DNA of 64,000 bases from Raillietiella orientalis (lineage: Eukaryota). Position numbers and translations under genes: made by a program. Shown here one piece after another: positions 1 through 60,889 of the stretch. The stretch spans positions 62,001 through 126,000 of the forward strand of contig JAYWIR010000081.1 in the NCBI GenBank assembly GCA_036172245.1, written 5' to 3'. Each line of letters starts with the position of its first letter. Positions within the stretch are counted from its first letter, which is position 1. The notes under the pieces are model-generated. The model saw only the letters and a program-made list of their open reading frames with translations. It made no database searches and had not been told where the DNA came from.

Positions 1-258
1 TTCGAAGATTTGGGAAAGTGGGAAATTCTCTTATTGTGGAGAGTTTGTTCTTTCTGGAATAGGAAGGCCCTGCAAAGTGGAAAGTAGGGTTATGGATAGT
101 ATTTAAACAGCAAATACAAATAGATAAGAGGAAAACACAATAAGGTTAACACAATGGGAAACTGAATTGCTTATTTGACTCTACAGACTGGGCACTAATG
201 TGTTCTGTGATGAAATGTGAAAAGGAGTGGTGATGTTTTGTGATTTACTTTTGTCATT

Positions 259-756
259 CTAGTATTCGTCTTGAGGTAATCTGAAATGCAGCGAGTTTAT
301 TATTATGAAAACTGACTGCAATGTTTTGTAGATGTCAAAGCAAAGAAAGTTCTTGGAAATTCTAATATGGAATTGCTGATATGGAGACTGCCTTTTCAGA
401 GGCTCGGCTGCAGGCTGTACCTCCTCATGCTGCCTCAGTCTCACGGCCCTTGGAAGCCTACGTTCAAATTTTCTGATAGCCTCGTATAATTTCGATCTAA
501 TGTCCGCTACACGATCTGTTCCGAGTGTTGGGGTTATCATTTCAATGGGTTTTAGCGAAAGTTCTTTCGGCACCTTCGAGCAAAAGGCCTCCCACTCGGG
601 TGAGAAGCCCTCTTTCGACTCGATGGCCTGTTGAGACATATGGGGTGAGAGGCATAGTGCTGATTTAGGGTACACGTTGAGCATGAAGGATCCGAGTCGT
701 CCTAGGGTTGAATCGGCTTCGGAATCATTGAAATTTGTACGAGCCTGGCCAGTCAA
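259..756 (-). CDS. Orphan ORF (165 aa, TTG start) of unknown nature, possibly a decayed viral or mobile gene together with ORF 768..980
   Basis: Long open frame in AT-rich DNA; no motif recognised. Confidence 0.2.
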   Translation of the reverse strand: MTGQARTNFNDSEADSTLGRLGSFMLNVYPKSALCLSPHMSQQAIESKEGFSPEWEAFCSKVPKELSLKPIEMITPTLGTDRVADIRSKLYEAIRKFERRLPRAVRLRQHEEVQPAAEPLKRQSPYQQFHIRISKNFLCFDIYKTLQSVFIIINSLHFRLPQDEY

Positions 757-1339
757 TTATCTTGCTCCTATGTGGTAAAATTTTGCATTAAGCATAATGC
801 CTGCTTACGCCTCTCCCAAGAAGGCGTTAAATTTTCCTTGTTGAAATTGATAAGAGTAGTAACGGAGTTTTCCAGACTTGCATCTTTCAGTTTGGGCGTT
901 TCTGCTGTGGTATTCGTTTGGAGTGGAATGTCATGCATTGAAGTGTACTGTGATATTGTTGCATGAAAAAATTCCAACATGCAACTATTTACTCATTGCT
1001 GATAGTTTAAATTATTCTCATGGCAATTATGATGATAGAAAGTCTGCAGTTATTCAATGTTTGAAGCTAAATCAAATTCTTTGGATCTTTAACATGATGT
1101 GTTATGAATCTTGATTTATAATTTCAACTTTTTTGAGGTTTGTGACAGATATTGCACTGAAAGTTGACTGTGCATAAATTTCCATACAGCAAAGGCAAGA
1201 TTTTTTCTTTTTCTTTTGCTAATCGGTATGCTTGGAATCAGAAGTTCCGAAATATGTTGCCTACCCATCTCACTGAACTGCAAATTGTTTTCTTGAAAAG
1301 CATTTGTTAGTATCCTTGGCCCTCACCCAAGTCATCATT

Positions 1340-1845
1340 GTGAATGTGGTGAGGGGGTTGGGGTGTGCTCTGCTTCGTGTAAGGCGGAAGCATTCTTTTA
1401 CAAGATTTATGTTTTTACTATAAAATTTGGTGTGGTTGTTGAGTATGAAGAGTTCGTCGGCGCCATCTTCTATGAGTTGGAGTATCTAGCGGATAGATGA
1501 TTTGCGATTTGGCTTACCACGTCTTGGTAGGCCAAAAATTGGCTCGTAGGATTCGTGTAGTTTCCCGAATATCCAAGCTTGCTTGTCTTCTTTAGTGAAA
1601 TACCGTAAGCTTCTCTGCGGACTGCCTCTAGCTTTTTCAAGATGACTTTTTTGGAAAGTTTTTCTTTTTAATCCTGGTAGTGTTCGAGGTTCTTTTAGCT
1701 GGAAGAATCCTTGAAGGTGTGGTGTTCCGGTTTTTGCGATCTCTTTGCCTATGCATGCAAAGAAGCAGTTAAGTCGGCACTAGTTGTTGAGTTCTTTTAA
1801 GTCGTCTTCGGTAAAGCACCAGTTGAAGAAGAGTGCGTAAGGCAT
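1340..1845 (-). pseudogene. rep: Degenerate N-terminal half of a CRESS-virus Rep (virus 2)
   Basis: Manual translation from ATG 1845: MPYALFFNWCFT...IGKEIAKTGTPHLQGFFQL...HLEKARGSPQRSLRYFTKED...ILQLIEDGA...KFYSKNINLVKECFRLTRSR. RCR motifs I/II/III are present and colinear with the Rep at 4015. There is an internal stop and no helicase half. Confidence 0.9.
1486..1517 (-). other. Putative rep intron of virus 2 (GTAAG...TAG, 32 nt)
   Basis: Same position as the virus 1 intron (YQDV|ILQLI); canonical ends. Confidence 0.65.
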
Positions 1846-1897
1846 TCTGAAATTCACTGTAAGTGCGACTTGTTTGTGGTTGTCTGCGTGTTGGTAT

Positions 1898-3493
1898 TTA
1901 TACTGCGTAACTGCGCAGAAGATGCAATCTGGTCAATAGTATTACCCAGATTGCATGCAGCTGACAAGGCAAAACCTTGGGAAAACCTTGGCAAAACCCG
2001 GCTTCTTCAGCGAGCATCATAACTCCCAAGCAGCCCTTGCTGACCGGACCGTATGGATATTCGGTCGAGGAGGCCTGGGTCAAGGGGAGGATTTCCTCTT
2101 TCAGCGCCTTTCGGATGATTTGGTCGAGCGATTGCCAGAGGGCTTTCCGCTTCGAGCCCATTCGGAGGGCGTGCACAAAGGCTAGGAACACAAACGTCTT
2201 TAAGGCGTCCAGCTTTTGCCATGGCGCAAGGGGACAGTCCATCACTTTGGCCACGCTGCCAGTAATGTCTTCGAGCGCATGGCTGTGCATGGCATCGAAG
2301 CCTACGGGCTTTCCTTCGTAACTATATGTACCGCTATCATTGAGCACGGGGATGGGTTCCCCTGTTATGTTGAATTGCTCACGCCCAAGAGTCTTGGGAG
2401 TTCGGGGATCGTAGTGCAGGGACGAGCACTTCTTGGCATTGATGGTGAGGCCCAGGCGAATAGCCATGTAGCGTGCCGCATTCAACGCCGCGTGTAGTGT
2501 TTGTGCGTCCTCAGCGAGGATGACGAGGTCATCCGCGTAAGCGAGCACCTTGATTCTGGGCACGTGGTGTTTGATCCCTTGGCACAGTGGCTCGATTGCG
2601 ATATCAAAAAGCAGTCCGGATAGCGGGCATCCCGGTTTCACGCCCCTACATATGTGTATTGGAGGTGAGAGACCGGCAGACGTTACGATCTGTGTGATGT
2701 TGTCTGTGTGCATTTCGCACACGAGTTCCACGAAACGATCACCGGCACCCGCACATTGGAGGGAACACAAAAGCTGTGAATGGGGGATGGATGCAAATGC
2801 ATCCAGCCAGGCAGCGCACACGGTTCGATGGTGGCGCTTGCTGTATTCGATCAAGTGCGATAGTATGAAATTGTGTTCGAGGACACCATCGAAAGGGAGG
2901 AAGCCCTTTTGGTGTGGGCTGAGAATGTTATTCTGTAAGATCCAGTCCCTCACTCGGCGGGCCACGCACTTGGTAAAGATTTTCCCTATCGTGCGGCTGA
3001 TGATAATCGGGCAGGCCCAAGGGAGCAGGAGTCCTGAGTCATCAATCATCCATGGACACAATTTGGTCGCTTCAGATTTGCTTATGTTTTTGATAATCCA
3101 TCTGTCACTGGACATCTTGGAGTAGTCAGGTTCCCAGTTACTGAAGACTACTATGTGTGGAGGCTCGAAGTATTTGATGGATCCTTGATATTTGGAATGG
3201 AAGATGATTCCGTTTTTAAAGGTCTCTATGAATCCATACTGAACTATTTCTTGGTTGTCCCTTGTGAGGTCTACAACTATAATCCTTTCGCCATGATAAA
3301 TGTGTGCTGCATCAGCTTTTTTGCAGCTGTGCATGTAGATTGCTGATTTTTTAAGATAGAGGAATTTGGCGAAGGTGGTTTTGCCGATTCCTCCTATGGG
3401 GTCGTAGAACCAGTGTATTTTCCTGGGATTTGGTGTGGTTCTGATGATTTTAAGTATGTCCATTTGCCAATTTCTGAGTTGTAGGTTTGCCAT
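1898..3493 (-). CDS. Chimeric ORF: CRESS Rep SF3 helicase fused in frame to a NeSL/Utopia-like RT domain, with a tail read through the virus 2 origin
   Basis: Walker A GGIGKT, Walker B IVVD, motif C VFSN, then HQKGFLPFDGVLEHN, GCPLSG, YADD, LAPWQK in one 531-aa frame. Confidence 0.85.
   Translation of the reverse strand: MANLQLRNWQMDILKIIRTTPNPRKIHWFYDPIGGIGKTTFAKFLYLKKSAIYMHSCKKADAAHIYHGERIIVVDLTRDNQEIVQYGFIETFKNGIIFHSKYQGSIKYFEPPHIVVFSNWEPDYSKMSSDRWIIKNISKSEATKLCPWMIDDSGLLLPWACPIIISRTIGKIFTKCVARRVRDWILQNNILSPHQKGFLPFDGVLEHNFILSHLIEYSKRHHRTVCAAWLDAFASIPHSQLLCSLQCAGAGDRFVELVCEMHTDNITQIVTSAGLSPPIHICRGVKPGCPLSGLLFDIAIEPLCQGIKHHVPRIKVLAYADDLVILAEDAQTLHAALNAARYMAIRLGLTINAKKCSSLHYDPRTPKTLGREQFNITGEPIPVLNDSGTYSYEGKPVGFDAMHSHALEDITGSVAKVMDCPLAPWQKLDALKTFVFLAFVHALRMGSKRKALWQSLDQIIRKALKEEILPLTQASSTEYPYGPVSKGCLGVMMLAEEAGFCQGFPKVLPCQLHAIWVILLTRLHLLRSYAV
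1922..1956 (+). promoter_or_regulatory. CRESS rolling-circle origin stem-loop (virus 2)
   Basis: 11-bp stem ATGCAATCTGG/CCAGATTGCAT around nonanucleotide TAGTATTAC (1937-1945). Confidence 0.93.
1968..1998 (+). repeat. Iteron-like direct repeats AAAACCTTGG (two full, one partial)
   Basis: Adjacent to the origin; GGCAAAACCTTGG also lies next to the virus 1 origin at 4142-4154. Confidence 0.7.
1999..3012 (-). mobile_element. NeSL/Utopia-like non-LTR element copy A, RT portion (3' truncated at virus 2)
   Basis: Colinear with the RT of 9689..12418 from RPIxISRT to LAEEA. Confidence 0.9.
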
Positions 3494-4015
3494 TGGATTT
3501 GGATGTCTTCTGCTTCTTGTTAGTCTGAAGCATTCCTTGACGAAGTTAATATTCTTTGAGTAGAATTTTGTATGCTGTTCTAGGGTGTCGAGTTCTGTTG
3601 CTCCGTTTTTGATAAGTTGTAGTATCTGGAAGTTATGTGTATTAGTTTGGTCAAGTTTTTAAAAAAAGATATGTACCATGTCTTGATAGTCGTTGGTTTC
3701 TTTGTGTTCTTGGATTAGTCCATAGGTCCAAGCTTGGTGGTCTTCTTTGGTGCAGTACCGTAAGTTGCTCTGTGGGCTTCCTTTTGCCCTTTCGAGGTGC
3801 GCTTTTTCAAGTGGTGGTCTCTTCAAACTCGGTAAAGTCCGTGGATCTCGGAGTTGGAAATAGCCCTGTAGATGTGGTGTGCCGGTGCTTGCAGTTTCTT
3901 TTCCGATAACTGCGAATGTGCAGTGTCGTCTGCACCAGTCTTTTATCAGGAGTAGTTCGTTTTCTAAGTAGTTGCATAGGGTGAAGCACCAGTACATGAA
4001 GTGTCCGTAAGGCAT
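3013..4015 (-). CDS. rep: Replication-associated protein (HUH endonuclease + SF3 helicase), spliced; native C-terminal tail at 5269-5232
   Basis: CFTLCN, PHLQG, YCTK; GGIGKT, IVVD, VFSN; the only stop (3659-3661) lies inside a GT-AG intron. Confidence 0.9.
3626..3676 (-). other. Putative 51-nt rep intron (GTACAT...ACTAAT...TTCCAG)
   Basis: Canonical ends and branch-point-like CTAAT; removal deletes the in-frame TAA; position shared with virus 2. Confidence 0.75.
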
Positions 4016-4095
4016 GGTGTGGTTGGTAATTCTGTCGAGGTGAGACTGGTTTGTGCCTCTTGTTGTGGTGGTATAAATACTTGGTAGCTACGCAG

Positions 4096-4133
4096 TAGAT
4101 GCTATCTGGTTAGTATTACCCAGATAGCATCTA
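4096..4133 (+). promoter_or_regulatory. CRESS rolling-circle origin stem-loop (virus 1)
   Basis: 14-bp perfect stem TAGATGCTATCTGG/CCAGATAGCATCTA with TAGTATTAC at 4111-4119. Confidence 0.95.
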
Positions 4134-4300
4134 GCTTATTCGGCAAAACCTTGGAAATTGTGTCAGATTGCAAGTTTTTTATGAGGGTGTCTGGTTCATG
4201 TCCGCAGTCGTGGAGGACTTAGGAATGCGGAACAAGATGTACTTGTCCACGTGTGGAGGTCGTGGCATGATCCGACGTCGTGGAAGACTTAGGGAGTCGG

Positions 4301-5194
4301 ATGGCGTGTCGCCACCAGCCTCATAGTGTAGGGGGGAAGGGGCTCTATGTAGCTCGCAGCGGCTATTCGACTTTCAAGAAGCCCAGACGTCCGTATAATC
4401 GTCGTCGGCGTTTGCGATTGTATCGCAGTCCGCGAAGTCGTCTGTCTCTTGCGAGGCGCGTGGTATCGCGTGATATAATGTTAAATGCGCAGCATTATGC
4501 ATCGTTGAGGTCTGCTGACGGAGATTATGTAAATTGTTCTTGGATGTTTACGTATTCGGAGAGTGCTGGAAATCTGCAAAGTATACTGACGGAATTGAAT
4601 TTGCAAGAGTTTGGTCGTTATTATCGATATGTAAGGTTGCGTGGAATGTCTATGAAGATCGAACCGCTGTCTTTGGGTTTAACGATAGGAAATATGGCCG
4701 AAGAATTCGGGATGAAAGTGTCTTATCGGAATCTTTTATTGTATCAGTCTCACAATCAGGGTGAATTTTTTGGATCGCTTGCAGGAATGCCTGATCACAA
4801 GGTGGAAGATGTGATAAGTGGTCATAAGGAAACGAGCGGCTGTTTAGTTCGTTATTTCGGTGTTCGTGGAATACGGCTGTATTCCAGGGCGTATATAAGG
4901 AAGGATATGCATTGTTATGGAGGGAATTTGGAGCGTTATGTGCGTTGTACTTGGGTTGATTGTGGTTTTGGTTCTCGTTTGGATCAAGAGTTGCTGGTGG
5001 AAATGTTTATGAATCGTATGCATGTGATGAAGCATATGTCAGGTATGGATATCCCAGATTCGATAAAGCAAGGTTGTCAGTCTGGTGTATGTCCTAAAAA
5101 TGGATTGTTAACTCAGGGTTGGCCTATTTACAGACTGACTCGAACGTTTTATGTGGAATTCAAACATCTAAGAGACCCTACCCTGTATACTTGA
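4301..5194 (+). CDS. cap: Putative capsid protein (297 aa from ATG 4301; GTG 4280 alternative)
   Basis: Arg-rich N-terminus (RRPYNRRRRLRLYRSPRSR), FGRYYRYVRLRG motif, divergent from rep across the origin. Confidence 0.85.
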   Translation: MACRHQPHSVGGKGLYVARSGYSTFKKPRRPYNRRRRLRLYRSPRSRLSLARRVVSRDIMLNAQHYASLRSADGDYVNCSWMFTYSESAGNLQSILTELNLQEFGRYYRYVRLRGMSMKIEPLSLGLTIGNMAEEFGMKVSYRNLLLYQSHNQGEFFGSLAGMPDHKVEDVISGHKETSGCLVRYFGVRGIRLYSRAYIRKDMHCYGGNLERYVRCTWVDCGFGSRLDQELLVEMFMNRMHVMKHMSGMDIPDSIKQGCQSGVCPKNGLLTQGWPIYRLTRTFYVEFKHLRDPTLYT

Positions 5195-5269
5195 AAAATG
5201 GAAAACTTGCAATGGAATGTACTTTTATTTATCAACTTCTGGTGAGGGGGGTGACAAAGTGGAGCATGT

Positions 5270-7544: not shown

Positions 7545-7679
7545 TCGAACGCTTCGCCTATCGGGAGGAAAGGGAATCTGTTACTTATTCCGGAACCTGG
7601 CATCGAAGAGGAGTGGGAGATTACCCGCGGACGCCGCCTTCGCCGCTGCCTGCCTTCCTCGCGAAGCAGCAGCAGCGTC
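7545..7679 (+). rRNA. Degenerate 28S rRNA fragment (D7 region)
   Basis: GAAAGGGAATCTGTTACTTATTCCGGAACC resembles the conserved 28S core; 7641-7679 is identical to 8679-8717. Confidence 0.6.
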
Positions 7680-8629
7680 TGCAAATTAATTAAAATAAAT
7701 TATTAAATATACAAATAATACGGCCAAAATATTGGGAAACACTCTGGAATGCCAAATCAAGTTAATTGAAACAGCAGAAAATTAGGGAAAATTGATTTAT
7801 ATCCATATGGGAAATTTAAAGGTAATGACGACATATACAGGAGAGCCAGGCCGGATCGATAAAACCTAGTTGTGATATTCACAGTAAGAAGGCAACACGA
7901 GTTTTTTGAAAAATACGAATTAAATTAATGTAAATAGTAATGGATTGATAAATTAGATTTGAAATGTAATCAGACGTGACAATATTCAAGTTGCAGTCGA
8001 AAAAATCGTCTGTATTTACAGAAGATAGAATTTAAGTAAAACAAAGTTTAGTTGAAAATCCCAGTTGCAGATGGCAGTACAGAATTTCTTAGATTTTCAT
8101 TTAAATTTATTGAATTAATTTGAGATTTTGACAAACAAAAAAATGCAAAAATACACGTTTTGTAGTATGAAATAAATTATCAATTATTAATTTAATCCAA
8201 AATATGTCAAATAAAAAAGTTCAAATTTTGGTCGAATGCTTACGCGTTACCAAGTAACGCGATCGCAAGACCAAGTAAATTTTCAATGGATTCTCGAATT
8301 CAAAAGGAATTTCATCAAAGTTAGATCTTCAATTTAGGTAATTTTAACCAGATAATTGAAGACAGGGCTTCAAGTTATCTGGTTATAGAAACGGTGGTAA
8401 ATTGGATTACGAAACTTACTTTCTTACCTTATTGACGAAACCACACAAACACTTCAAATTTATATAATTTGCTATTTTCTGGAGAGAAAATAACAAAATT
8501 TAGTACAAATGTACTCCAATCTTGCAATTGCAAGGTAAAATACACTTCGTGTGACTACGAACACACAAGAAAATTGAAAAAATACAATTTTCCAATGTTA
8601 CCGAGCGGAGCGACGCGGGAACACGTCCG
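7680..8629 (-). mobile_element. Isolated 5' UTR fragment of a copy-B-type element
   Basis: Homologous to about 17730-18608 (shared hairpin, splice donor, TTGCAATTGCAA palindrome, terminal ACACGTCCG). Confidence 0.8.
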
Positions 8630-8678
8630 AACGCTGCGACGGCGGCGGTGACTGACCTAAGAGAGTCACGCGAACCGA

Positions 8679-9496
8679 CGCCGCTGCCTGCCTTCCTCGC
8701 GAAGCAGCAGCAGCGTCGGTTCGCGTCGCGGCGGGGAGGGAATCCGCTTGTCGCTGCAAAGCAAACGAGCTCGGAGACGTCGAACTCGGAACCCCGGGAA
8801 GAGTTTTCTTTTCTGCATAAGGGATTGCCTCGTACCCTGGAATCGGCTCGTACGGAGAGAGGGTCGGGCTCCCGAAGAGCGCCGCGGTTCTTGCGGCGTC
8901 CGGAAGGCTCCGTTCGGCCCTGGAAAATCCGAGTGAGGTAGAACGAATCTCGTGCCAGATCGTACCCATATCCGCAGCTGGTCTCCAAGGTGAACAGCCT
9001 CTAGACGATAGAATAATGTAGGTAAGTGAAGTCGGCAAACCAGATCCGTAACTTCGGGAGAAGGATTGGCTCTGAGGGTCGGGCCGGTCGGGCTTGGCCG
9101 GGAAACGGTAGTGGTTTCCTCGCCGTGGCCGGGAGCTAACGGGAGATCGGCGTTTCCTCGCTCGGTCGGGGCGCGCGCGTGCCGGCGGGTCCGCTCGGGG
9201 TACGCTCAGCGGCTGCCTGCGGCGCTCGCCGGTCGCGCGTCGTCCTTCGTAGCGATACCCGTCTCCCATCCCGGCCTTGCGCGGGATTCCGACCCGCGGA
9301 ACGGCCTCGCTTGACGCTCCGGTCGGCCGTCGCCCGCCGCCGCGCGCCGTCTTCTTCTCGGCGCGCGGCCGGGCGCTCTGGTCCCGGAGCGTTTCGGCCG
9401 GCATGCAGCGATCGACTCAGAACTGGCACGGACAAGAAGAATCCGACTGTCTAATTAAAACAAAGCATCGCGATGGCCGTTGCCGGTGTTGACGCG

Positions 9497-9528
<32 letters not shown>

Positions 9529-9572
9529 AGTGAAGAGATTCAACCAAGCGCGAGTAAACGGCGGGAGTAACT
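8679..9572 (+). rRNA. 28S rRNA pseudogene fragment ending in the helix 69 loop
   Basis: GTCTCCAAGGTGAACAGCCTCTAG, GATCCGTAACTTCGGG, GAATCCGACTGTCTAATTAAAACAAAGCAT, GTAAACGGCGGGAGTAACT. Confidence 0.96.
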
Positions 9573-33371: not shown

Positions 33372-36345
33372 CCCGGTACGCCGGGACGTTTATTTTTTCA
33401 AATAAACTCATATAAACTGTGACTGGACCAGTAGTCCATCCACGCCCTGGAAACATTCAGCCTGCCGGGCTACCGGTGCACGGACCGGCGCGGTCGACCT
33501 CGGCAGCAGAGGGGAGGGGGAATCAAAGAAAAAGAAAAAAAAAATAAACAAAACCGGGTAGGGAGCGGGAAGGGATCACTGTCTGCTGGGAGGATCCGTC
33601 ATGCTCTGGAGGATGCCGGCAAGCTGTCACTAAATGGTGGGTTCCAGATGGGGCCATCGCGTAGCCATCCTCAGGAAACAAGCGGCGTACACGGTGGCGT
33701 CTCTGACGCTGGACTTTCCCGTCGCTTTGTTGCAGGCCACGCCGATGCCGCGTAGGCAGCACAGGGCTGCAAGCGAGGCCACCGATGGCAGAGCATCACG
33801 GACGAAGAGGGGGCGCAAAGCGTCTCTCGGTTTGCCTCCGGGGATCCCCAGGGCTGCGGCAAAGCGTTCCCACTAGGGACGGAGGGCAACACATTCCACT
33901 AGCAGGTGGGGGAGGTATTCCCTCTCCCCGCACCTGACACAATTGGGGTTTACACCCCCCCGTGTCCAGTGGTGTAGGCGGGTGTTGCAGGGGAGGCCCC
34001 AATGCAACACCAGGAGTGCCGACTGTTGCTACTTCATGGGGAAAGTTCGCGAGTCCATGAGCACCGGGGGCCACTCCAGATGTTCCTCCGGAACATCCAG
34101 TAGCTCGCCCGAGAGCATGCGTCCGTGTAGGGTGGTCCTCGGGGTCTCAGCGTTGTTGACGTGACCCGTTCTCCAATCCCCGTTTTTTTTTGCCCTGCTG
34201 GCGATCTTGACAGTAACCTCTCATTGTGCCGCGACGTCGCTGCCCAGATGTTCCCGTATGGTAGGCAGTACCGCAGCAAGGGAGGTTCTTTGAGCCCACG
34301 CTCTCCTTCGGGGATCCTCGAAGATTGCTCGGAGCGTGCGGTGGGCGTGAGGCCCTACCAGACATATTCGTTCGTGTTGCGGGCTCTCCTCCTGAGTCAT
34401 AGCCCACGTGGGGACGCTTTCCTGCAACCAGGCAGGACCGTTCGCGGGGCGTACGAGGATCCGCTCCGAGTTGGTCTTCACGAGCTTGGCGGCCCTTCGA
34501 AGCTGAAGTCCGCAGTGGCAATTGGGGCTTCGGAGTGCAAAGTAGGACGAAAGTCCCGCATTGCCGGTGGCCCGCTCGACGAGGAGACGTGCAGGGAGGC
34601 ACCAGGCGGTGCACCAATTTTTTGCCATAAAGGCAACACTCCGGAACTGGAGCTGAAGCTCCAGCCGCTCCAGCGTCAGGAGGCCAAGACCGCCGTCCCG
34701 ACGCGGAGCGCACAAGTCCGCGAGACGGTCTCGGGGCCTCCCTCTGCCCCAAAGGACTATCCTCAGGAGTTCCTTCGTCCTTTTCCTGACTCCGCTGAGG
34801 GGGGGAAACGAAAAGCAATGGGCGAAGGAGGGGTGCCGCAAAGGCGTTCCACGCCGCGGCCCGTTCCTGCAGGTAGAACCTGCCGTCCTGGAACGGTCCG
34901 ATCGCCACCTGAGCCTTCTGAAGGCTGCCGGACCACGCTTCCGCAGGGGAGTAGTCCCCCAACGGCACACCAAGGTAGTTGAAGTACATCACTGTGGGGT
35001 TCCCCAAACGGAACCAGTCCTGTTGCCCTGCCTACGCCGCTCCGACTGCCATTACGGACGACTTCGCCCTGTTCACCGTCAGTCCTGTTCCCCGACTCAG
35101 CAGGTCGAAGAACTCCTCCACCGCCGCAGACGGGGTGGACATAGGGAGCAGTAGCAGAACATCGTCCGCGTATGCCAAAACCGCAGGCGTACCGGGACAA
35201 TCGCGCGGCAGGTGCGCCAGAGTCTCCATGTACGCTCTCAGCACCAATTCGAAAGAGGCGCTAAAGAGCAGGGGGCTCAGCCTGTCTCCCTGCCGTATGC
35301 CGCGTCGCACCGGTACTCCGTGAAAGGTTTGCACGCTGAAAAGAACATTGATGAGCGCGTCGCGCCAGCTGGAGCGCAGGTAGGCCAACAAAGAGGCCGG
35401 GTAGCCCAAGCGTTCCAGAAGCTCCAGCAGGAGATTCTGGTCGACGCTATCGAATGCTTTACGCAATTCGACAGCGACCGCAAGGGCTCCCTTCCCTGAC
35501 CGACCGTTCCGTCTCCCGCCAACGGACTCACCGGAATTCCGGCTGCTCAATAAGCCCCTTCCTTGTTGGAGCTTTAACCATGTGGAAGCGTGGAACAGGT
35601 TCGCCTCCATGCTCCGCCCGGGAACAGCATAAGTCTGTTCCGGGCTGACGAAGATGTTGGCAACCCGTCCCAGACGCTCTGCCCAAACCTTTGCTAGCAA
35701 CTTGGCGTCCGCATTCACTATTGTGATGGGACGCTATTTGTGCATTCTTCTTAGGTCTCCCTTCGGGAGGAGCCGCATCTTTGCTGGATGAAATGAGGTG
35801 GGAACGTCACATGTTTCGCAAATCAGCAAGGTGAGCTGATGTACCAGAGGGGTAAGCTCTGCCGCGAAAGTTTGGTACAACTCCGCGGGTAGGCCGTCCT
35901 CCCCTGGAGACTTCCGCCTCTTGAGCTTTCCGATGGCCGAGAGGATCTCGTCCATCGTGAAAGGCTCGTCGAGGCTTCTTTTCTCCTCCTCCCCGATCGC
36001 TGTAGCACCTTCCGGAAGCAGGAGTCGTGAGACGTCTCGCTCCGGAGGCGCCGTGGCGTACAAGAGGAGTAAAATTTCTTCACAATGCCGCGCTTTTGAG
36101 CAGGTGCCGAGTGCTCCCGGCCCTGGTCGTCCAGCAAGCTAGACGACCCGGATTTCCAGGCTTGCCTCTCGGCTCCCGCTCGATACTTTGCTCACCCGCA
36201 CATGTCGGGAGTTCTCGCGTAACGTCGGGCCTGAAGATAGCACCTTTCGTTGCGCGGCCCCTCCCCAAATCCCTCTTTTCGAGAGCCGACGTGCTTTTCC
36301 GGCGCTCCGCGAACGAGCAGCGAAAAGCGGCTTTTAGGTTCAGTG
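33372..36345 (-). mobile_element. Family X ORF2 after the endonuclease + 3' end (second unit)
   Basis: KSPGEDGL, KAFDSV, RGIRQGDRLSP, YADD, YLGV. Confidence 0.88.
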
Positions 36346-36356
36346 TGTGCTTTTTC

Positions 36357-38570
36357 ACATCGTTAGTGTCTGATGGCATCGCTGTCAGAGGACACCACGA
36401 TGCAGGTAGGCGTGAGGGAGGCTAGCCCCCCCCACGACCTACAGAATCAGGGGCATCCGCCCCGTAATCGCCCTCGTCGCCTAAGACGAGGAGCTGGAGC
36501 GCCATGGTCGCCGCGCCGAGCGCGGAAACCTTGGCTGAGCAAGCGGCCTACAGGGCCTCCGGATATAAACCATCCCTGGTTTATAAGGTAGGAAACCTGT
36601 TCGACGGTCGCACCGCGCGTGCCTTTAGCAAGGCACTACAGGAATTCCCCGTGCGTGAGGAGGATCTTGACGACTTCGCCGTACTCAGCGGGTGGCGACG
36701 CGTGGAGGTCGTCTGCAAAGACGTAGCCATAGTGCAGCGCCTCATCAACACCCCGCTGAATGTGGCTGGCCGAAAGATCCTACCCGTTAGCATGGATCGC
36801 CCCGTAGTGGTCCATCTAACGGGGATCGCGAACCGCATGACGCGCTCTGCGGTGAACGCGGAATTGAGAAAAATTGAGATGTGCACGCGCTGTGGGCAAA
36901 GCCAACCATTTTTGACGGCTATAACAGCCTCTTTGGTGGACAGGCAGCAGCGCGTGTCACTATGAACGAGGTTGCTGGGTTACCCCACAAATTGGAGGTC
37001 GGGAAGGAGCCCGTCGACCTCTGGTACGTGGGGAAACCCCGCTATTGTTGCTACTGCGATGCAGTAGGGCATGTGCGCAGGCGGTGCCCGAATATCGAGT
37101 GCCACTTGTACGGGGAAAAGGGACACGTCCGTCGTGTGTGCCCTAAACGCCCACCCCGGTGCCACCTGCTGCCAAAAAGGAACAGGCGCAAAAGGTGAAT
37201 AAGGTTGAAATACCTCATCGCGAAAATGGCCGGCCCCAGCAGCCTTCTCCTCCTCCAACCCAGGTAGCGGCGGAAAAAACCGCCAAAGACGCGGGCGAGG
37301 AAGAAGGATGGACGCTGGTAAAGGCCAGAAAAGAACCCAAAAACGGTTCACAAGAGAAGGCGGAGCAAAAGTCGGTCGCGAAGGCGAAAAAACCTGGTCC
37401 GCGATCTAAAACTCTCCGCGAGTGCTCGGTAGCACTGGAGCGCATCAGCGTTCCCGAGGCTGCTACCCGAGGCGACGAGCCTCCCCTCGCCGCTTCCGCC
37501 GCGCCCGACGTTTGCGACGGCGAACCCTCTGTTTGCACAGAAGGTGAGACGCGCCACGCGCTCGTTGCCGGCGAGGACGCCGCCTTCGCGAAGGCGGCGG
37601 AGGAGCTCGCGGCCACGCTGGCTGAGCGTGAGAACCCCTCACGCAAGGCCGTGCGAAGGCCGGCTCCGCCGAAGAAGGCCCCCGCAGGTGAGTGCGACCT
37701 GGGGACCGGAAGTGCATCCTCCTCCTCGGAGGCACCCCCGGAAGACGGGACGCAAGTCCCAAAAGCCGAGGAAGCGCCTCCCCTCCACGAGCGAGGAGGA
37801 GATGCAGGAAGTCGCCGGCAGCGTGGGAATCGCGGAGGGGGAGCTCCCACGCGCGGAAGCCGTCGAGCAGGACAGCCCCATGGACGAAGGTGAGCAGGGG
37901 GGCGAAGTCCTAATTGCCGGCGCGGACCCTGTACAGCCCACCCGTACGAAGGAGGGCCAAAAGGTATGCGCGACACCACCGGAGGGTGACCCGCCCGACG
38001 CCCCGTCACCGATGGAGCAGGGGGACCAGGTGCTCGAGGCACCTGTTCCTCCTGCCCCAACTAGCGTCCCGCCCCAACAGGTGGCGCACGCCGCAGAAAG
38101 GATTTCCCAGGAATAACACCTGGGCTCGCCTGTCGCCGTCGAATCCGCGTGGCCAGTTGGAACGTCAACGGGCTGCGCGACGACGGAAGCAGACGAGATA
38201 CGGCCGACACCCTGCGTGAGTTCGACCTGGCCCTGCTGCAGGAGATTTACGTGATCACCTCGGCAGACGTCCAGGAGATCGAGACGATCGCGGGGGGTCG
38301 ACTGTATTGGTGATGCGGCGCCCGCAACACCTGTGGGGTCGCGTTTTTCGTGAAGCCGGCCATCCATGCTGCCGTGAAGGGCGTGCGCTTCGATGACGAC
38401 GGTCGGGTCGGTCGCCTGATTCTCAGCTGGTCCAACTCGATCGAATTGATCGTCACGAACGTGTACGCCCCAAGCGGGAAAAGGGGATACAGCGACCGTA
38501 CCAGCTTGCTGGAAACCCTGAAGCGCGACTGGCTGGCCGATACGAACGTGCGGAAGGCACACCTGATAGC
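36357..38570 (+). mobile_element. Family X 5' half (second unit), truncated inside the endonuclease
   Basis: Colinear with 30809-33015. Confidence 0.88.
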
Positions 38571-40870
38571 CCGTACACGTTTACCCGGAAAAGGTGAACG
38601 TGAGAGGTCCAGGCCAGTCGTACGCCGATTATACATCCCGGCAAGCGACAGAAGATTTCCAGAATGGTAGGGGCCAGTTGGTTCTTGACCAAGACCTCCA
38701 CACCCTGCGTGTTTCGTTCTTCCTCGCTGACGAGCATCTGCATATTGAAACGTCGTTCCATTTGCTGGATGATTTGGACACGCAACGTGTGGGTCTCCTG
38801 CAGGCACACGATGTCTTGTTTTGCGATGATCCGCACAAACCTCTTTCTCTTTCTCTTGTCGACTAACCCGTGTACGTTCCAGGAGGCCATGTTGATCCTC
38901 CTGGCGGTCGACAGGTATTAGGCCATACAGGGGAAGACAGACTTTTTGGCCTTCCTGAGCGTCTTCTGTCTGGGAGAGCGTGCTTTTCCAGACGATGAAG
39001 AAGGATCGGGTTTTTTGCTAGCAGCGTCACTCTCCGTCTCGGTGAGCTCGGTAAATTCGGCATCCTCCGTAGAGTGTTCTGCTCGCGCGATAAGTTTCCT
39101 AGGTAGAGCCTCTATTGCCACCTTTGCGCAGAAGTTTGCTTTAACGTCGAGAAGCTGTTCCTTCAGTTTGTCGCGCTCGGTAACTTCCACCACCTTATTC
39201 ACCGCCTCCTGTGCGTTGCAGATCTTTTGCAAGATTTGCTTCTGCTGTGGCCCGCTTTGCACCTCCATCAGTTGTTACGCCAGCTTTGCCAGCTCTTGGG
39301 TAGACTGCAGGGCCTCTTGATACACCCGAGTGGCTTCTTTTTCCACCTTTGCTTCTTCCTGTGCTGTCTCCATTTTCTAGTTTTCCGCTGCTCTTTCTGG
39401 GGTAAAAGAGGCTTTCTGCTCCTTGATGAGCATCTTCCTCTTTCCCTTTTTACCGACTTCGATAAAGCCGATCGCCGATACCGGCACGGCTTCCTTAGTT
39501 TTCATCGGCCTTCCTGCCAACTTTTGAGGCCCTTCCGCCTCTTTTATATTCCTGTCTCTCACGGGAGAGTGTCCTCTGATCGTTCTGCAAATGGCGAATT
39601 GAGGGCAGCTTCATTTACTGTGCCCATGCGTCTTGCAGAAGGAACAAACCTCCGGCTGCGGACAGTTTCAAACATGTTGTCCTATCTTGCCGCAGCGGCA
39701 GGAACGAGATGTTGGGCAAGCGCCTGCCCTGTGGCCAAACTGCTTGCATCCGATGCAAAATATTTTCGGTTGCCGATAACGCACTTTCACACAATGTGAT
39801 TGCTCATCGATGACTGCTATCCCAGGGATCACCGCGCCTTCCTTTAATTTTATGTTGGCGATCATGTCGCCAGAAAAGATTTTTCCTGAGAAGTTCTCAA
39901 ACTCGAGGTAGAGAACTTTCCCAAACTTCTCCAAGTATTTCCACACCGTGAGTTGAAGTGTGTAGATGGATATGCTATTTGAGAACACGGTAGTGTATGG
40001 CATCTTGCCAACGCCACAAAACATCTTTTCTTGAATATTGATCCCATTCTGGATAAATCCTTCCCCAACGTATTCACAGTCCGTGAAGACCGTGAACCCG
40101 TTGTTGCTGGGAATGATTGCGTGGTTACGGTCAAAATCTATATCTGTCTTGTCTAGAGACAGATATATCTCCCGGATATTGTTGAACTTTATCGTTCCAG
40201 TCTTAAAAATAATAGGCTTCACCTCTGGCCCTAACTGGACGATAGGCCGATCTACCTTTTTGACTTTCCCTCTGAGAGGTTTGCCGAATTTCCTTGGCGG
40301 ATGGACACTGACATTCCCCACCGCCACCGACGCCTACAGAAACGGCTGCACCGCCTCAGCCGAGCAAGATGGCGTCGCATCTTACGCTCCCTGCACAGTG
40401 TGGACGCGCGCTGGTCCCGCCTGGGACGCCGCCGCGAGCGCAACTTCGACGTTGCCGCCGCCGCTGCCGCAGGCGCGACCCCCGGCATCGCCGCCGCAGG
40501 CGTGTCCGTTGCCGCAGCAAGCGCGACCCTTGGCATTGCCGTCACGGGCGCAGCAAAGCCTTACGTGGGCACGATCCTCGGCTTCGCCGATGCCACCTAG
40601 CCGTTGCCGTACGTTACCTCCATCTGCATGGGGACGTCGGCTTCTCCTCTTCTGCTAATGCCAGCATCCTGACAGCTGAAACTATTGCTGAGGAAGTTTG
40701 AAGGTTTTCCGCTGTGATCTCCTTGGCGCTTCATTTGTAGTTGTATGAGCAGATCCTTCGCAGCACACTCTTGTCCACACTCACTGTGGACTGTCTCACA
40801 CTCACTTTTCTCTGGATACTTTCCCTCTCCGGACACACACGATCACAATTAACTAATTAACTTTCGTCGT
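38571..40870 (-). mobile_element. L1-like family Y copy: ORF1 + endonuclease N-terminus
   Basis: CIGCKQFGHRAGAC; SWNVHGL...CLQETH; homologous to 49090-51370. Confidence 0.88.
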
Positions 40871-49060: not shown

Positions 49061-49091
49061 ATTGTGCGCTTGACAAAGTAATCAGTTAATT

Positions 49092-50995
49092 GTGCTCGTG
49101 TGTGCCCGGAGAGGGGAAGTTTTCCAGACGAAACTAAAAAAAAGAAGCGGCGAGGAGATCGCGGCAAAAGACCTGCAGTGGTCCCGTGCAGCAAGACCAG
49201 CTGCCAGGATGCAGGAACATAGAGGAGGAGTGGAGAGACCGTCGTCCCCCATGGAAGCCATGCAGGTAACGTGCGCCAACGGCGAGGTGGCGGCAGGCAT
49301 GCCGAGGATCGCGCCCGCGGCGGGCTTAGCTGCGCCGGCGGCGCCGATGCCAAGGGTCGTGCCCGCGGCGACGACGGCGGAGGTCGTTCCCGCGGCAGCG
49401 ACGCCGAGGATCGTGCCCGCGGCGGGGAAGGTCGCGCCTGCGGCGGCGATGCCGAGGGTGCCACCCGCGGCGGTAACGGCGGCAACATCGAGGTTTGCGC
49501 CTGCGGCGGCGGCGTCCCAGGCGGGACCCGCGGGCGTCCACGCGGTGCAGGGAGAGACGCCATCTTGTTCGGCTGCGGCGTCGCAGCCCTTTTCTTATGC
49601 GTCGGTGGCGGCTGGACAGGCGAGTGTCCACCCACCTAGGAAATTTGGTAAGCCGCTTAGCGGAAAAGTACTAAAAGTGGACCGATCAATAGTCGAAATA
49701 GGCCCCAACGTGAAGCCCATTATCTTCAAGACGGGGCTAATAAAATTTAATAACATCAGGGAGGTCTATTTGTCCCTCGACAAGACGGACATAGACTTTG
49801 ATCGCATTCAGGCGATCATTCCATCGAACAACATGTTCACAGTCTTTACAGACTGTGAAAACATTAGAGAGCGATTGATCCAGAAGGGGATCAATATACA
49901 AGGACGGATAGTTTGTGGTATTGGCGAGATGCCATACACAACCGTCTTTTTAAACGGCATCTCCATCCTCACACCGCAACTAGCGGTGTGGAATTACTTG
50001 GAGCAGTTTGGGGAAGTTCTGGACCTTGATTTCCAGAACTTCTCTGGAAACATATTTTCTGGCGACATGATCGCCAAGATGAGGTTGAGGGAGGGAGCGG
50101 TGATCCCTGGATTGGCCGTTATTGACGAACAATCCCAGGGAGTGAATGTGCGTTACCGGCAACAACCGGTATTCTGCACCGGGTGCAAGCAGTTCGGCCA
50201 CAGGGCCGGCGCTTGCCCAACGTGTCGTTGTTTCCGCTGCGGCAAAGTAGGACATCAAGTCCGAAACTGCAAGCAGCCGGAGGTGTGCTCCTTCTGCAAG
50301 AAACACGGACATGCGAAATGGAGCAGTCCGGAGTTTGAAAACTGCAGAAGGATTCGAGGTCTCTCTCCCGTGAGAGAGAGAAACATCAAGGTGGCCGAAC
50401 AGCCTCAGAAGGCAGGAATTCAGAAAAAAGTGAAAGAAGCCGTCCCGGTGTCGGCGGACGGCTTCATAGAAGTGGGAAAGAAGGGAAAAAGCAGGATGCT
50501 CCTCAAGGAGCAAGGAACTCCTCAAATCCTGGAGCAGCAGAGCAGGAAGGCGAGAAGATGGAGGTAGCGCAGGAAAGCGTGAAGGAAGAGAGACAGGAAG
50601 CCACTAAAGTGTCGCAGGAGGCTCTGCAGACTACGGAGGATTTGGCAACACTGGCGAAGGAGATCATAGAGGTGCAGAGCGGTCCTCAGCAAGAGAAAAT
50701 CTTGCAGAAGATCTGCACTGCACAAGAGAACATCAACCAGGTGGTGGAGGTCGCTGAACGCGAGAAGCTAGAGGAACAGCTTTTCGACGTGAAGGCGAAC
50801 TTCTGCGCCAAGGTCGAAATAGAGGCGCTATCTCGAAAACTGATCGCGCAGGCGGAACACTCTACGGAGGAGGCGGAAATTACCGACCTCACAGGTACGG
50901 AGTGTGACGCCGGCAGCGAGAAGCACGCTGCTTCTTCATTGTCTGGAAGAGCACCCTCTCTCAGACAGAAGAAGCTCAGGAAGGCCAAAAAATAG
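49092..50995 (+). CDS. Family Y ORF1 (Ala/Pro repeats, three CCHC-type knuckles, acidic helical tail); frameshift near 50540
   Basis: CTGCKQFGHRAGAC, CFRCGKVGHQVRNC, CSFCKKHGH. Confidence 0.85.
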
Positions 50996-51008
50996 GTCTT
51001 CCCCTTTT

Positions 51009-54000
51009 ATGGCCTCTTCCCTATCGACCGCCAGGAGGATAAACATCGCCTCCTGGAACGTAAACGGTGTGGTCGACCAGGGAAAAAGAAGAAGGATTGT
51101 GCGGACCATCGCACAACAAGACATTGTGTGCCTGCAGGAGACCCACAGGATGGGTCTGGAGATAAGCCAGCGAATGGAACGGCGATTCAACGGGCAGATG
51201 TTCGTCAACGAAGGAGAACGGAACACGAAGGGTGTGGCGGTGCTAATAAAGAACCACTTAGCCCCCACTATTCTGGAAGTGTTCTGTCCCCAACCCGGAC
51301 GAATCATCGGCGTGCGCCTGGCGTTGTCAGCGACTGTTCACCTTATCCTGGTGAACGTGTACGGGCCGCACAGGCTAAAACATCGTTGTGCGGAGGCGCT
51401 GCATGCAACACTCCGGCAAAAGGTCGCCCCTAAGGACGTCGTGATTGTTGCTGGCGATCTCAACATCTTGGATGAGATCATTCATTCGGAAGACGCCAGA
51501 GAAAGGACGGCGTATCGACGGCTATCCGAGGAGTTCGGACTGGTCTGGCGAACAGCAGGCCACAAGCCAATCGATCACGTCCTGCACAGCACCGAACTTC
51601 GGAAACGCAACCAGGGGTTTCGCGACACTATGACTACGGTGTCCGATCACCCCCTCGTGCGGTTTTCCCTAAGAACGGAGAATCCTCGGCGGAGGCAAGG
51701 CACCAGGGCAGCGCTCATCAGCATGCCCGCCTGGTTCGAAACCCATCCCGGACATCAGGCTGTCCTGGAGGCGATTCTGAGGGCAACAACAATCCGAAGA
51801 GTCGTCGACTGGGACAGCCTGAAACACGGGATACACCTGTTTGCGAACATGCAGTTCGGGGATAGGCGCTTGAGGCAAGAGGCGTACCGGGAGCTGCACA
51901 TCCAAGATCGCTCCCTCTCAAAGTACTTCGATCAGTACGAGAGTCTGTACGTCCTCAATAACATAAAAGGGGAAGTCGGCGTGCTGGAGAAGAGAAATCT
52001 GGCAACAGATATCTTCTGCAGCCAGTACGACGGCCAAAAGCGACAGTGGTCTAAGGATATCGTGGATGCCTTTCACAGGGATTACACGAAACACTTCAGG
52101 CGACAACAGCTGTGTCGCTCTAGTCAACAGGCCTTCTTGAGCTATCTCGAGAAGAGGACCGACGACCTCCAGCGGAACAGACTGAAGGAGGAGTTCTCCG
52201 AAGAAAAGGTGAAGACTGCGTTTGGGCAACTTCGCAAGGACGTGGCAGCGGGCCTTGACAGTGTACCCATCACGCACTATCAGCGGTACCTGCACGCCTA
52301 CCTGCGCTTGTTCCACCAGTTGACCCTCTGCATCCGAGAAGAAGGAAGACTCCCGGAATCCTTCTACGAGGGTAGGATGAGATTGCTAGCGAAAGGAGGC
52401 GACTCTACCCAGATCGCCCAATGGAGGCCAATCTCGATCTTAAACTACGATGCCAAGTGGTTGGCGAAGATCTGGTCCAACCGCTTAGGCAAGGTCATGT
52501 CGAGGCTGATCTCTCCGGTCCAGACATGTGCAGTCCCAGGACGACACATGTCGGACAATGTCAAGTGTGAGCAGGCAACTGTTGTACTCAGTCGATACGT
52601 CGGCAAGAACCTGGTGCTGGTGTTCACTGACATCGAGAAGGCTTTCGACTCCATCGACCACGGGATGCTGCTGAATGTTCTGGAGAAGCTAGGACTTCCG
52701 GAACACTTCAGCAACTTCGTGAGGGCGGTACTCCAGAACCAGTACTGCCGGATCAAGATCAACGGCCAGGAGACGGCAGCAATCAGGATGGAACGAGGAG
52801 TCCGACAGGGCGACTCGCTAAGTCCGATGCTGTTCGTCATCTATATGGAGGTGTTGTCGTCCTTTATCGAGAAGAGCGGACGACTAAGCGGGATTACCAT
52901 CGATAGCCAGCGTCTTACCCATCTGGCATACGCCGATGATCTACTCTTTTTCATAAAGGAAGAGAAAAATCAGCGTGCGTTTCTGAATGTGGTGGACCTG
53001 ATGGAACAGGGCTTGGGCTTAAAAATCAATTCCCAGAAGAGCCAGCTTCTGCGCGTCGGAATACTGGATCTCTCCACTCTAACGGGTAGTGGATTCCGTA
53101 CGGTGGACACGGCCAAGTACCTGGGAGTCTACATCGGCGACGGCTCTGCGTCGAAGCTGCTGTGGAAGGAAATCCTGGGGAAAACGGCCAAGGAAGCAGC
53201 CAAGTACACTCGAACGGACCTTGGGATAAAGCGAAAGGCCAACATATGGAACGGAGTACTCCTTCCGAAAGTGCTCTTCGGGGCGGCCTTCGCGAGGATG
53301 AACAAGGACACTACTAGGGAGTTCGACAAGCTGCAAAGAAAAACACTCTGGGGCCACTATCGCCCAAGAGTAAGACTGAAACCCCTGTGTGTCCCAGGGA
53401 AGAAGGCGGTTCCGGGATGAAGTCGCTTGCAGATTCCATGGAAATCATGGATACGCGACACATCCTGGACATTGCCACTTACTGATATGAGCGGCCGTAT
53501 GCGGAGCACAGGGCCTACGCGTTGTTGCTTAACAACTCGAAAGGCCTGATGACTGCGCTGCTAGGCAAAGTAGGGGAATGGATAACAATCGACCCGACCT
53601 GGAGGAGGAAGCAACGGCTGGTGCGGAAGCAGCAAATCAAGATCGTGCCGCGAAGCAGGGAACTCTGGCAGGACGAGTCCAGCCTGGTGATCCCTTGGTT
53701 GCTTCCTGTCCCGCCGGACACGAGAAGCTGGATCTACCAGCGGTCCAGAGTTACCCTACTGCAAATCCAGGAGTGGAGGCGAGGAGGCTACCTACATCAA
53801 ACACGTATACTTCGGTATACAGAGATGATGTTAGGAAGGTTTACCCACAGGACCCGCGAAGTGTGGTTCAACCACAACGACTTCGCATGTTCGAGGGTAA
53901 CGAGAACAAACCTCCGAAGGCTTATCCAAGAAAACGACCGTGACACCAGTGCCGTCCAGGAAGCCACCGAACGCTACGGGAGTGAACGGTTCAACCTGTT

Positions 54001-60800: not shown

Positions 60801-60889
60801 CTGAACGAAAGGGAGGCGTGATTATTGCTAGTTTAAAACTATACCCAAAACCACGCCAAGGCAGTGTTCAAAACCACTGCCAAGGCAAT

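What the first reader, a model, noticed from the sequence alone, without database searches (positions are those of the whole stretch)
1898..4015. Potential HUH endonuclease-SF3 helicase-reverse transcriptase fusion gene under a viral promoter
Seen: after removing the 51-nt intron, one frame runs from the rep ATG (4015) to 1898 (688 aa). It joins a near-complete Rep to an RT core with YADD and is bracketed by two same-strand TAGTATTAC origins (1937, 4111). Inference: Rep nicking at both origins could release a roughly 2.17-kb ssDNA circle carrying the Rep-RT fusion, which the neighbouring Cap could package. Caveat: the RT has lesions (WLD---AF, KPG for KQG, YEG for YLG) and may be inactive, so this could be an accidental chimera.
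Basis: partly seen in the sequence, partly recalled or inferred. Interest (0 to 1): 0.78.

Follow-up and report, generated by a model that had tools for sequence, protein, structure and literature searches.

The report
Virus circle inserted inside retrotransposon gene
A nearly whole small circular DNA virus landed in the middle of a damaged jumping gene, and its replication gene happens to read on into the broken reverse transcriptase, so this is most likely a one-off fossil rather than a new hybrid element.

Summary
The 688-aa frame, the 51-nt intron and both TAGTATTAC stem-loops are real; the interpretation mostly is not. Window 3013-5268 is one near unit-length CRESS-virus circle, opened in the Rep tail and inserted into the RT of an R2/NeSL-type retrotransposon. 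Six sister retroelements are uninterrupted there, the RT's front half lies at 5270 onward, and Rep's own last codons and stop lie at 5225-5268. The junction occurs once. The RT piece lacks its front motifs and endonuclease, and has a 3-codon deletion in motif A. Origin 1937 belongs to a second, broken virus. The capsid gene lacks about 105 nt with its likely start. In this genome 13 Rep match ends abut retroelement frames: all 13 on the same strand, 4 in frame (chance is one third), and 2 read through, the second at an older locus. No Rep-RT was seen in 268 proteins or 142 outside loci. The scan noted CRESS pieces inside LINEs elsewhere in this genome. Against my reading: the RT piece has no stop or frameshift, and origin-to-origin release is not excluded.

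The parts
1340..1845 (-). Broken Rep of a second CRESS insertion (virus B), frameshifted and cut short; left end approximate
   Evidence: Viral_Rep hit E 3.8e-12; 68% DNA identity to 3727-4157; a copy that continues into a capsid gene lies on C72, L031
1898..1997 (-). Last 32 codons and stop of the fused frame: read-through across origin-B DNA, neither Rep nor RT
   Evidence: DNA matches other viral origins
1922..1957 (+). Origin B stem-loop with TAGTATTAC at 1937-1945
   Evidence: z -3.79
1968..1998 (+). Iteron-like repeat, present three times at the join between virus B and the RT (once in the uninterrupted copy)
   Evidence: window versus L031; join shared only with C161
1998..3012 (-). Middle piece of the RT of an R2/NeSL-type (RLE) non-LTR retrotransposon; YADD at 2539-2528; 9-nt deletion in motif A near 2804, Q-to-P at 2635, L-to-E at 2317; cut before the end of the thumb and the endonuclease
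   Evidence: RVT_1; matches residues 493-834 of a 1169-aa R2 protein, E 7e-27; lesions versus six sisters
3009..3012 (.). Rep-RT junction; up to 4 nt shared by virus and retroelement
   Evidence: single match in the genome at up to 2 mismatches
3013..3625 (-). Rep exon 2 of virus A: SF3 helicase with Walker A, Walker B, motif C and arginine finger; lacks the native 30-aa tail
3626..3676 (-). 51-nt GT-AG intron with an in-frame stop at 3659-3661; its donor departs from most family members at +4
3677..4015 (-). Rep exon 1 of virus A: HUH nickase with motifs I-III
   Evidence: Viral_Rep E 2.6e-15; motifs; a sister copy matches solved circovirus-type Rep domains
4072..4079 (.). TATA-like box between origin A and the Rep start; function untested
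   Evidence: sequence; same place in sister copies
4096..4133 (+). Origin A stem-loop with TAGTATTAC at 4111-4119
   Evidence: z -6.24
4301..5194 (+). Capsid-like gene of virus A, with a deletion of about 105 nt near 4346 that removes the likely start and part of the arginine-rich arm; an upstream ATG at 4301 is in frame
   Evidence: Circo_capsid E 7e-5, below cut-off; atlas score 0.96 to cressdnavirus clusters; deletion versus 5 of 5 aligned copies
5224..5268 (-). Displaced 3' end of the virus A rep gene: last codons, stop (5225-5227) and AATAAA
   Evidence: continuity with 3009 in L002, L003, L005
5270..7520 (-). Front half of the same retrotransposon: zinc-finger region and start of the RT; one stop and one frameshift; far end approximate
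   Evidence: joins 3012 directly in uninterrupted sisters; frames

Best explanation
A one-off chimera made by viral integration. Shown: a CRESS-virus circle of about 2.4 kb (Rep with intron, origin, Cap) was opened in the tail of its rep gene and inserted between two adjacent bases of the RT gene of an RLE-type non-LTR retrotransposon. About 44 nt of virus were lost and no target site was duplicated. Rep and RT lie on the same strand and the join fell in frame. A separate join put the origin of another, broken viral insertion on the far side of the RT piece and removed the retroelement's 3' part; the frame ends by running through that origin. Inferred: both joins were made by end-joining repair of a break (short shared bases at one, a locally repeated motif at the other). 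The RT piece cannot polymerise. If the locus is transcribed and spliced at all, it yields a Rep with an inert tail. The segment has not spread.
For: Six sister retroelements (77-84% identical) run through the site uninterrupted. Three sister viral copies join 5268 to 3009 through 44 nt that the window lacks. The insert is 2256 nt against a tandem unit of 2402-2407 nt on C106. The junction occurs once (1 of 40 scored matches spans it). RT: front motifs lie on the other side of the insert; 3-residue gap in motif A against R2 structures; 15 changes at residues shared by at least 5 of 6 sisters, 10 of them also kept in a distant element. The front half of the element has a stop and a frameshift. 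The genome has at least 126 and 150 Rep-domain matches; 4 of 13 Rep ends next to a retroelement frame are in frame, as chance predicts. No RT match in 268 Rep-like proteins or 142 outside loci.
Against: The 337-codon RT piece has no stop or frameshift, whereas 6 of 6 sisters have at least one; both of its deletions (9 and 3 nt) keep the frame. pN/pS to sisters is 0.12-0.15, and 0.25 (5 N, 5 S) at 88 strictly shared codons, not 1; this mostly records the element's active past but is no clean sign of neutral decay. A second, independent Rep-to-RLE-RT read-through exists on C40. The C161 copy differs at only 2 of 983 bases right of origin B, against 38 of 1936 left of it (9 in one cluster), unexplained. 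Rep keeps all its motifs. The repair pathway is inferred, not shown.
Confidence: 0.84

Rival explanations
1. Passive defective replicon: the chimera arose by accident, but Rep made from this locus or from an infecting relative nicks origin B and closes at origin A, releasing a 2.17-kb ssDNA circle that carries rep and a dead RT piece, much like a defective or satellite DNA.
For: Two same-strand origins 2174 nt apart, both hairpins, with a shared iteron-like repeat. They are the only pair within 10 kb among 18 strict origin matches. Rep motifs are intact, 95% amino-acid identity to a sister. Replicational release from repeated origins is established (PMC3187698, passages). The size is close to the 2.4-kb unit.
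Against: No re-integrated product among 29 of 29 matches to the origin-B join. The local Cap has lost its likely start. The intron donor is atypical and retention ends Rep at 118 aa. No AATAAA lies on the coding strand between 3012 and 1898; the native one is displaced to 5224. The origins come from viruses whose Rep N-termini are about 60% identical.
Confidence: 0.09
2. Functional HUH-helicase-RT element: Rep nicks DNA and hands a 3' end to the fused RT, replacing the lost restriction-like endonuclease, and the unit moves or is kept by selection.
For: Open 688-aa frame; YADD intact; frame-preserving deletions only; a second Rep-to-RT read-through in the same genome.
Against: Single copy. The missing front of the RT sits stranded beyond the insert. 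Motif A deletion and Q-to-P change. The C40 read-through joins a different Rep to a different RT position and is broken by stops and frameshifts. In-frame rate equals chance. No outside example.
Confidence: 0.03
3. Same anatomy, other route: the retroelement's own RT copied the viral DNA in by a template jump during insertion. A jump during second-strand synthesis onto the virion strand would give the observed polarity (Rep co-oriented with the retroelement). This concerns how the insert arose, not whether the fusion works.
For: 13 of 13 Rep ends that abut a retroelement frame are on the same strand; 29 same-strand against 1 opposite-strand neighbour tags within 1.5 kb. The intron is retained, so the template was DNA. 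Nearly one full round of the circle was copied.
Against: The same bias is expected if these clusters are selected as one-strand small-RNA traps: every RT match from 20 kb upstream of the window to window position 36000 is on the minus strand. The copies are not independent. Short shared bases fit repair equally well. Template jumping to ssDNA is recalled knowledge, not tested here.
Confidence: 0.2
4. Assembly artefact joining a viral contig to repeat DNA.
For: No reads were available to span the joins; the region is repeat-rich.
Against: Both ends of the insert meet the two sides of one empty site. The insert carries its own deletion and differs by 3-6% from the nearest copies. The origin-B join is repeated on another contig.
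Confidence: 0.03

Closest known systems
Endogenous circoviral elements fused with LINE-1 DNA in carnivores (CVe-Carnivora-4; Dennis et al., PMC6372831, passages read)
   Same: Rep-bearing ssDNA-virus DNA embedded in a non-LTR retrotransposon.
   Different: There the composite was amplified to 10-20 copies, apparently by retrotransposition; here it is single-copy and the host is an R2/NeSL-type element that has lost its 3' end. The passages read report DNA association, not an in-frame protein fusion; Table S4 was not read.
Whole-genome and tandem endogenous cressdnavirus insertions (cyprinid CVe, PMC6372831; krikovirus Rep+Cap EVEs, PMC10193959; passages read)
   Same: Near unit-length genome with Rep, origin and Cap integrated in a host chromosome; tandem copies occur in this genome too (C106).
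   Different: A different, unplaced lineage (best outside relatives 34-47% identical) with a short Rep intron and over 100 matches in one genome.
Geminivirus-like Rep carried in a transposon of Tuber melanosporum (Liu et al., PMC3198968, passages read)
   Same: Viral Rep combined with transposon genes in a eukaryote genome.
   Different: That element has 42 copies over 95% alike, terminal inverted repeats and separate transposase frames; none of this is seen here, and the partner is an RT.
apvRep-3 long alleles of avipoxviruses (PMC10193959, passages read)
   Same: A captured cressdnavirus Rep fused in frame to neighbouring genes.
   Different: That fusion is inherited by four species and the partners are not RTs.
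R2 / NeSL / Utopia-type RLE non-LTR retrotransposons (R2 structures 9nl3, 9dou, 8gh6)
   Same: The RT piece is of this type; zinc-finger-like motifs lie in the front half.
   Different: This copy is split, has lost the endonuclease end and is damaged in its RT motifs. Clade names are recalled and no tree was built.

Membership tests
Endogenous CRESS-DNA (Cressdnaviricota) element | Rep with HUH nickase and SF3 helicase | tested here: met
   Pfam, motifs, solved Rep domains
Endogenous CRESS-DNA (Cressdnaviricota) element | Nonanucleotide in a stem-loop origin | tested here: met
Endogenous CRESS-DNA (Cressdnaviricota) element | Capsid gene of cressdnavirus type | tested here: met
   Circo_capsid below cut-off; atlas 0.96 to Cressdnaviricota clusters, recognition value low
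Endogenous CRESS-DNA (Cressdnaviricota) element | Circular unit genome | tested here: met
   circular permutation between copies and a 2.4-kb tandem
Endogenous CRESS-DNA (Cressdnaviricota) element | Integration in host DNA with an empty site | tested here: met
   six uninterrupted sister retroelements; assembly not checked with reads
Circoviridae (or any named cressdnavirus family) | Ambisense Rep and Cap around the origin | tested here: met
Circoviridae (or any named cressdnavirus family) | Rep phylogeny within the family | not tested
   no tree with named references; nearest proteins are 34-45% identical and mostly unnamed. Not filed under a family.
RLE non-LTR retrotransposon (R2/NeSL/Utopia type) | R2-like RT | tested here: met
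   E 7e-27 to R2 against about 1e-6 to LINE-1 chains
RLE non-LTR retrotransposon (R2/NeSL/Utopia type) | C-terminal restriction-like endonuclease and intact 3' end | tested here: not met
   the copy ends at about 1998, where sisters continue; it is a remnant of such an element
Mobile Rep-RT replicon (proposed) | Several copies of the fused unit | tested here: not met
Mobile Rep-RT replicon (proposed) | Complete RT with intact motifs | tested here: not met
Mobile Rep-RT replicon (proposed) | Relatives in other genomes or viromes | tested here: inconclusive
   none seen, but the searches list only the best hits and no close outside relative of this Rep was found
Mobile Rep-RT replicon (proposed) | Spliced transcript or free circle | not testable with these tools
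   no run was listed

The most novel reading that the evidence does not exclude
This genome repeatedly joins CRESS Rep tails in frame to R2-type RTs (twice seen), and this copy is the youngest. Spliced from its viral promoter and bracketed by two working origins, it is released as a 2.17-kb ssDNA circle carrying a retroelement RT piece, with the frame kept open by selection. That would be a cressdnavirus-retrotransposon hybrid caught forming, in which a HUH nickase could stand in for the lost endonuclease.
Probability: 0.05. Interest if true: 0.8.

Novelty: new member of a known kind. Interest (0 to 1): 0.22.

Why it matters
As it stands the locus is a well-resolved fossil. Both ends and the empty site show how a whole CRESS circle enters a retroelement from a DNA template, and how convincing-looking fusion genes arise by chance in a genome with over a hundred viral pieces lying in the same direction as retroelements. 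The same-strand bias and the unplaced, intron-bearing virus lineage are the parts worth a specialist's time.

Tried and rejected
Sequencing runs: none was listed, so no reads were laid; this is no evidence on expression. 'Intron is just a nonsense mutation in coding DNA': rejected. 'Retrotransposon inserted into the virus': rejected, because both RT halves flank the virus and the element's 3' end is missing. Fused relatives: 2 hits of 200 candidates, 413 and 460 aa; 0 of 677 long candidates scored; weak evidence; best 150 of 7685 listed, longest 529 aa; no RT family in 19 selected proteins, mostly the longest; 0 of 268 proteins and 0 of 142 loci, probed only with four RTs from this window; positive control worked. 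Free virus of this lineage: 3 distant loci, 65 loci and 74 loci, whose near-full helicase matches were at most 47% identical. Host identity: the atlas gave only general eukaryotic RT clusters; not determined. The capsid probe was in the wrong frame; I use no capsid count from them and redid it. One search stopped after 25 of 30 loci and the junction survey used a truncated probe; both were redone. PMC10675110 (passages) gave nothing that bears on this. PMC6186406 (passages) only confirms that intron-split Reps are known. No structure was predicted, since a fold would not decide activity. No supplements were read; Table S4 of PMC6372831 may bear on how close the carnivore case is. Earlier-findings look-ups by words, sequence and near place returned nothing.

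Full report
Observation. The frame is as described. Exon 1 (4015-3677) and exon 2 (3625-1898) are stop-free and add up to 688 aa without the 51-nt GT..AG segment 3676-3626. Pfam places Viral_Rep, a helicase and RVT_1 along it. TAGTATTAC occurs at 1937 and 4111 only, against 0.08 expected, and both sites fold into hairpins. The intron is a trait of this virus lineage. Among the best 30 of 126 Rep matches in the genome, 28 show GT and AG in the same columns; 26 are convincing, since two copies are broken there. Their lengths are 32-51 nt, 13 of 26 are not multiples of three, and the interior is poorly conserved. The window's intron holds an in-frame stop, so the fusion exists only if it is spliced, and its donor differs from most family members at +4.

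What it is. The window lies on contig C81 of a 210-Mb eukaryote; the host group was not determined. Six sister retroelements on C72 and C33, 77-84% identical, run from the equivalent of window 1999-3012 straight into 5270 onward. So 3013-5268 is an insertion into an RT gene. Three sister viral copies join the equivalent of 5268 to 3009 through 44 nt that the window lacks, and a tandem on C106 gives a unit of 2402-2407 nt. The 2256-nt insert, with those 44 nt and a 105-nt deletion in Cap, accounts for one circle. The circle was opened in the rep tail: native Rep runs 30 aa past the junction, and its last codons, stop and AATAAA now lie at 5224-5268. Up to 4 nt are shared at the Rep-RT join and no target site is duplicated. 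The retained intron shows a DNA template.

The second origin. Origin 1937 belongs to another viral insertion whose Rep (1845 to about 1340) is frameshifted. A copy on C72 continues from that origin into a capsid gene. In the window it is joined to the RT through a thrice-repeated iteron-like motif, and the retroelement's 3' part is gone. That join is found twice, here and on C161, identical over 221 nt; no match among 29 of 29 carries the origin-4111 arm on the RT side. C161 is rearranged at the equivalent of 2919 and so does not show whether it ever held the Rep-RT junction. The fused frame ends by reading through origin B, and its stop lies outside the origin-to-origin interval.

The RT. It matches residues 493-834 of a 1169-aa R2 protein (E 7e-27), with a three-residue gap right at motif A. 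The motifs before the break lie at 5270 onward. Against six sisters it has 9-nt and 3-nt deletions and 15 changes at residues shared by at least five, 10 of them also kept in a distant element, including Q-to-P at 2635 and L-to-E at 2317. That these motifs build the nucleotide pocket is recalled knowledge; inactivity is inferred, not assayed. The front half of the element has a stop and a frameshift. C161 shares the lesions and differs by two changes, both non-synonymous.

Results against this reading. The RT piece has no stop or frameshift, while 6 of 6 sisters do. Both deletions sit between short repeats at codon spacing, which favours in-frame loss (my reading), and the finding was picked because it is open; still, the open frame is not fully explained. 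pN/pS to sisters is 0.12-0.15, close to the 0.10-0.13 between sister subfamilies, and 0.25 at 88 strictly shared codons (5 and 5 changes), so there is no clean signal of neutral decay. Rep keeps every motif and differs from its nearest copies with pN/pS of 0.17-0.21, which fits a young insertion. A second read-through from a Rep tail into an RLE RT lies on C40 (L099:4116-5750); it joins a different Rep to a different RT position and is broken by stops and frameshifts. The window and C161 differ at 2 of 983 bases right of origin B but at 38 of 1936 left of it.

Is the in-frame join more than chance? The junction 21-mer occurs once at up to two mismatches. The genome holds at least 126 nickase and 150 helicase matches (lower bounds). 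In the loci fetched, 2 of 102 distinct helicase matches read on into an RT. Of 124 distinct Rep match ends, 13 abut a retroelement frame; all 13 are on the same strand, 4 are in frame and 2 are open. With the strand fixed, one in three is the chance rate. Limits: only retroelement families of this window served as probes, some copies are related, some match ends come from frameshifts, and only part of the 150 matches was fetched. The strand bias also holds locally: every RT match from 20 kb upstream of the window to position 36000 is on the minus strand.

Packaging and release. Five of five aligned copies carry about 105 nt near 4346 that the window lacks, with the likely Cap start and part of the basic arm; an upstream ATG at 4301 is in frame, so a shortened product is not excluded. 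Release between same-strand origins is an established reaction (PMC3187698, passages), both hairpins fold, and this is the only pair within 10 kb among 18 strict origin matches. A passive 2.17-kb circle is therefore possible, but nothing shows it.

Outside the genome. No RT match was found in 268 Rep-like proteins or 142 viral and metagenomic loci, none of 677 long candidates scored, and 19 selected Rep relatives carry no RT family. The nearest relatives are 34-47% identical, so these blanks are weak and the virus lineage stays unplaced.

Known cases. Circoviral Rep DNA fused with LINE-1 DNA in carnivores, whole and tandem circovirus insertions (PMC6372831, passages), Rep within a truffle transposon (PMC3198968, passages), Rep gene fusions in avipoxviruses (PMC10193959, passages) and intron-split Reps (PMC6186406, passages) are all described. 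Ten searches, judged from listings and abstract openings, showed no Rep-RT protein fusion; the library lacks most subscription papers. Earlier notes of this scan report CRESS pieces inside LINEs, the same intron and one-strand pile-ups elsewhere in this genome; they are leads, and I tested the intron and the strand bias myself.

Verdict. A real but accidental single-copy chimera: a near-whole endogenous CRESS virus nested in a damaged RLE retrotransposon (0.84). Passive circle release 0.09, functional hybrid 0.03, artefact 0.03. Interest 0.22; new member of a known kind.

Noticed in passing
L099:4116-5750 (G000:C40, about 330100-331750, +): Second, independent in-frame join of a full-length intron-bearing CRESS Rep tail to the start of an RLE-type RT; older, with stops in Rep, frameshifts in the RT and a damaged origin.
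   Followed up: partly
genome-wide loci L001-L157: Rep genes next to retroelement frames are almost always co-oriented: 13 of 13 abutting ends, 29 against 1 neighbour tags. Fits one-strand small-RNA trap clusters or RT-mediated capture.
   Followed up: partly
window 1-2919 versus L026:2963-5911 (C161): Paralogous or allelic copy with 2 differences in 983 nt right of origin B and 38 in 1936 nt left of it; possible recent conversion starting near the origin. C161 then repeats 129 nt and switches to an inverted RLE element.
   Followed up: partly
L023:5889-9793 (C106): Head-to-tail viral tandem with a 2.4-kb period made of two non-identical units; capsid 94-96% and helicase 80% or 95% identical to the window's.
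   Followed up: partly
window 7641-7679, 8609-9002, 9445-9601, 18883-20649: 28S rRNA pieces on the + strand alternate with minus-strand RLE elements; a 39-nt 28S piece lies just beyond the front end of the element that hosts the virus.
   Followed up: no
window 9689-12463 and 12804-16553: Long open frames (924 and 1249 aa) of two further RLE-type elements; the first runs through the RT to an endonuclease-like C-terminus.
   Followed up: no
L031:7298-7331; L043 and L045: Two related Rep copies (C72, C33) break off into a short 28S rRNA-like piece and then resume with viral sequence.
   Followed up: no
window 49074-54526 and repeats at 5.6-6.1 kb spacing; 29000-38600: Tandem arrays of LINE-like elements with a zinc-knuckle first frame and an endonuclease-RT second frame.
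   Followed up: no
window 60772-60909: U4 snRNA gene, full model length, just before a LINE-like copy.
   Followed up: no
window 4200-4300: Short repeated and self-complementary segments in the viral intergenic region between origin A and Cap, conserved in sister copies.
   Followed up: no
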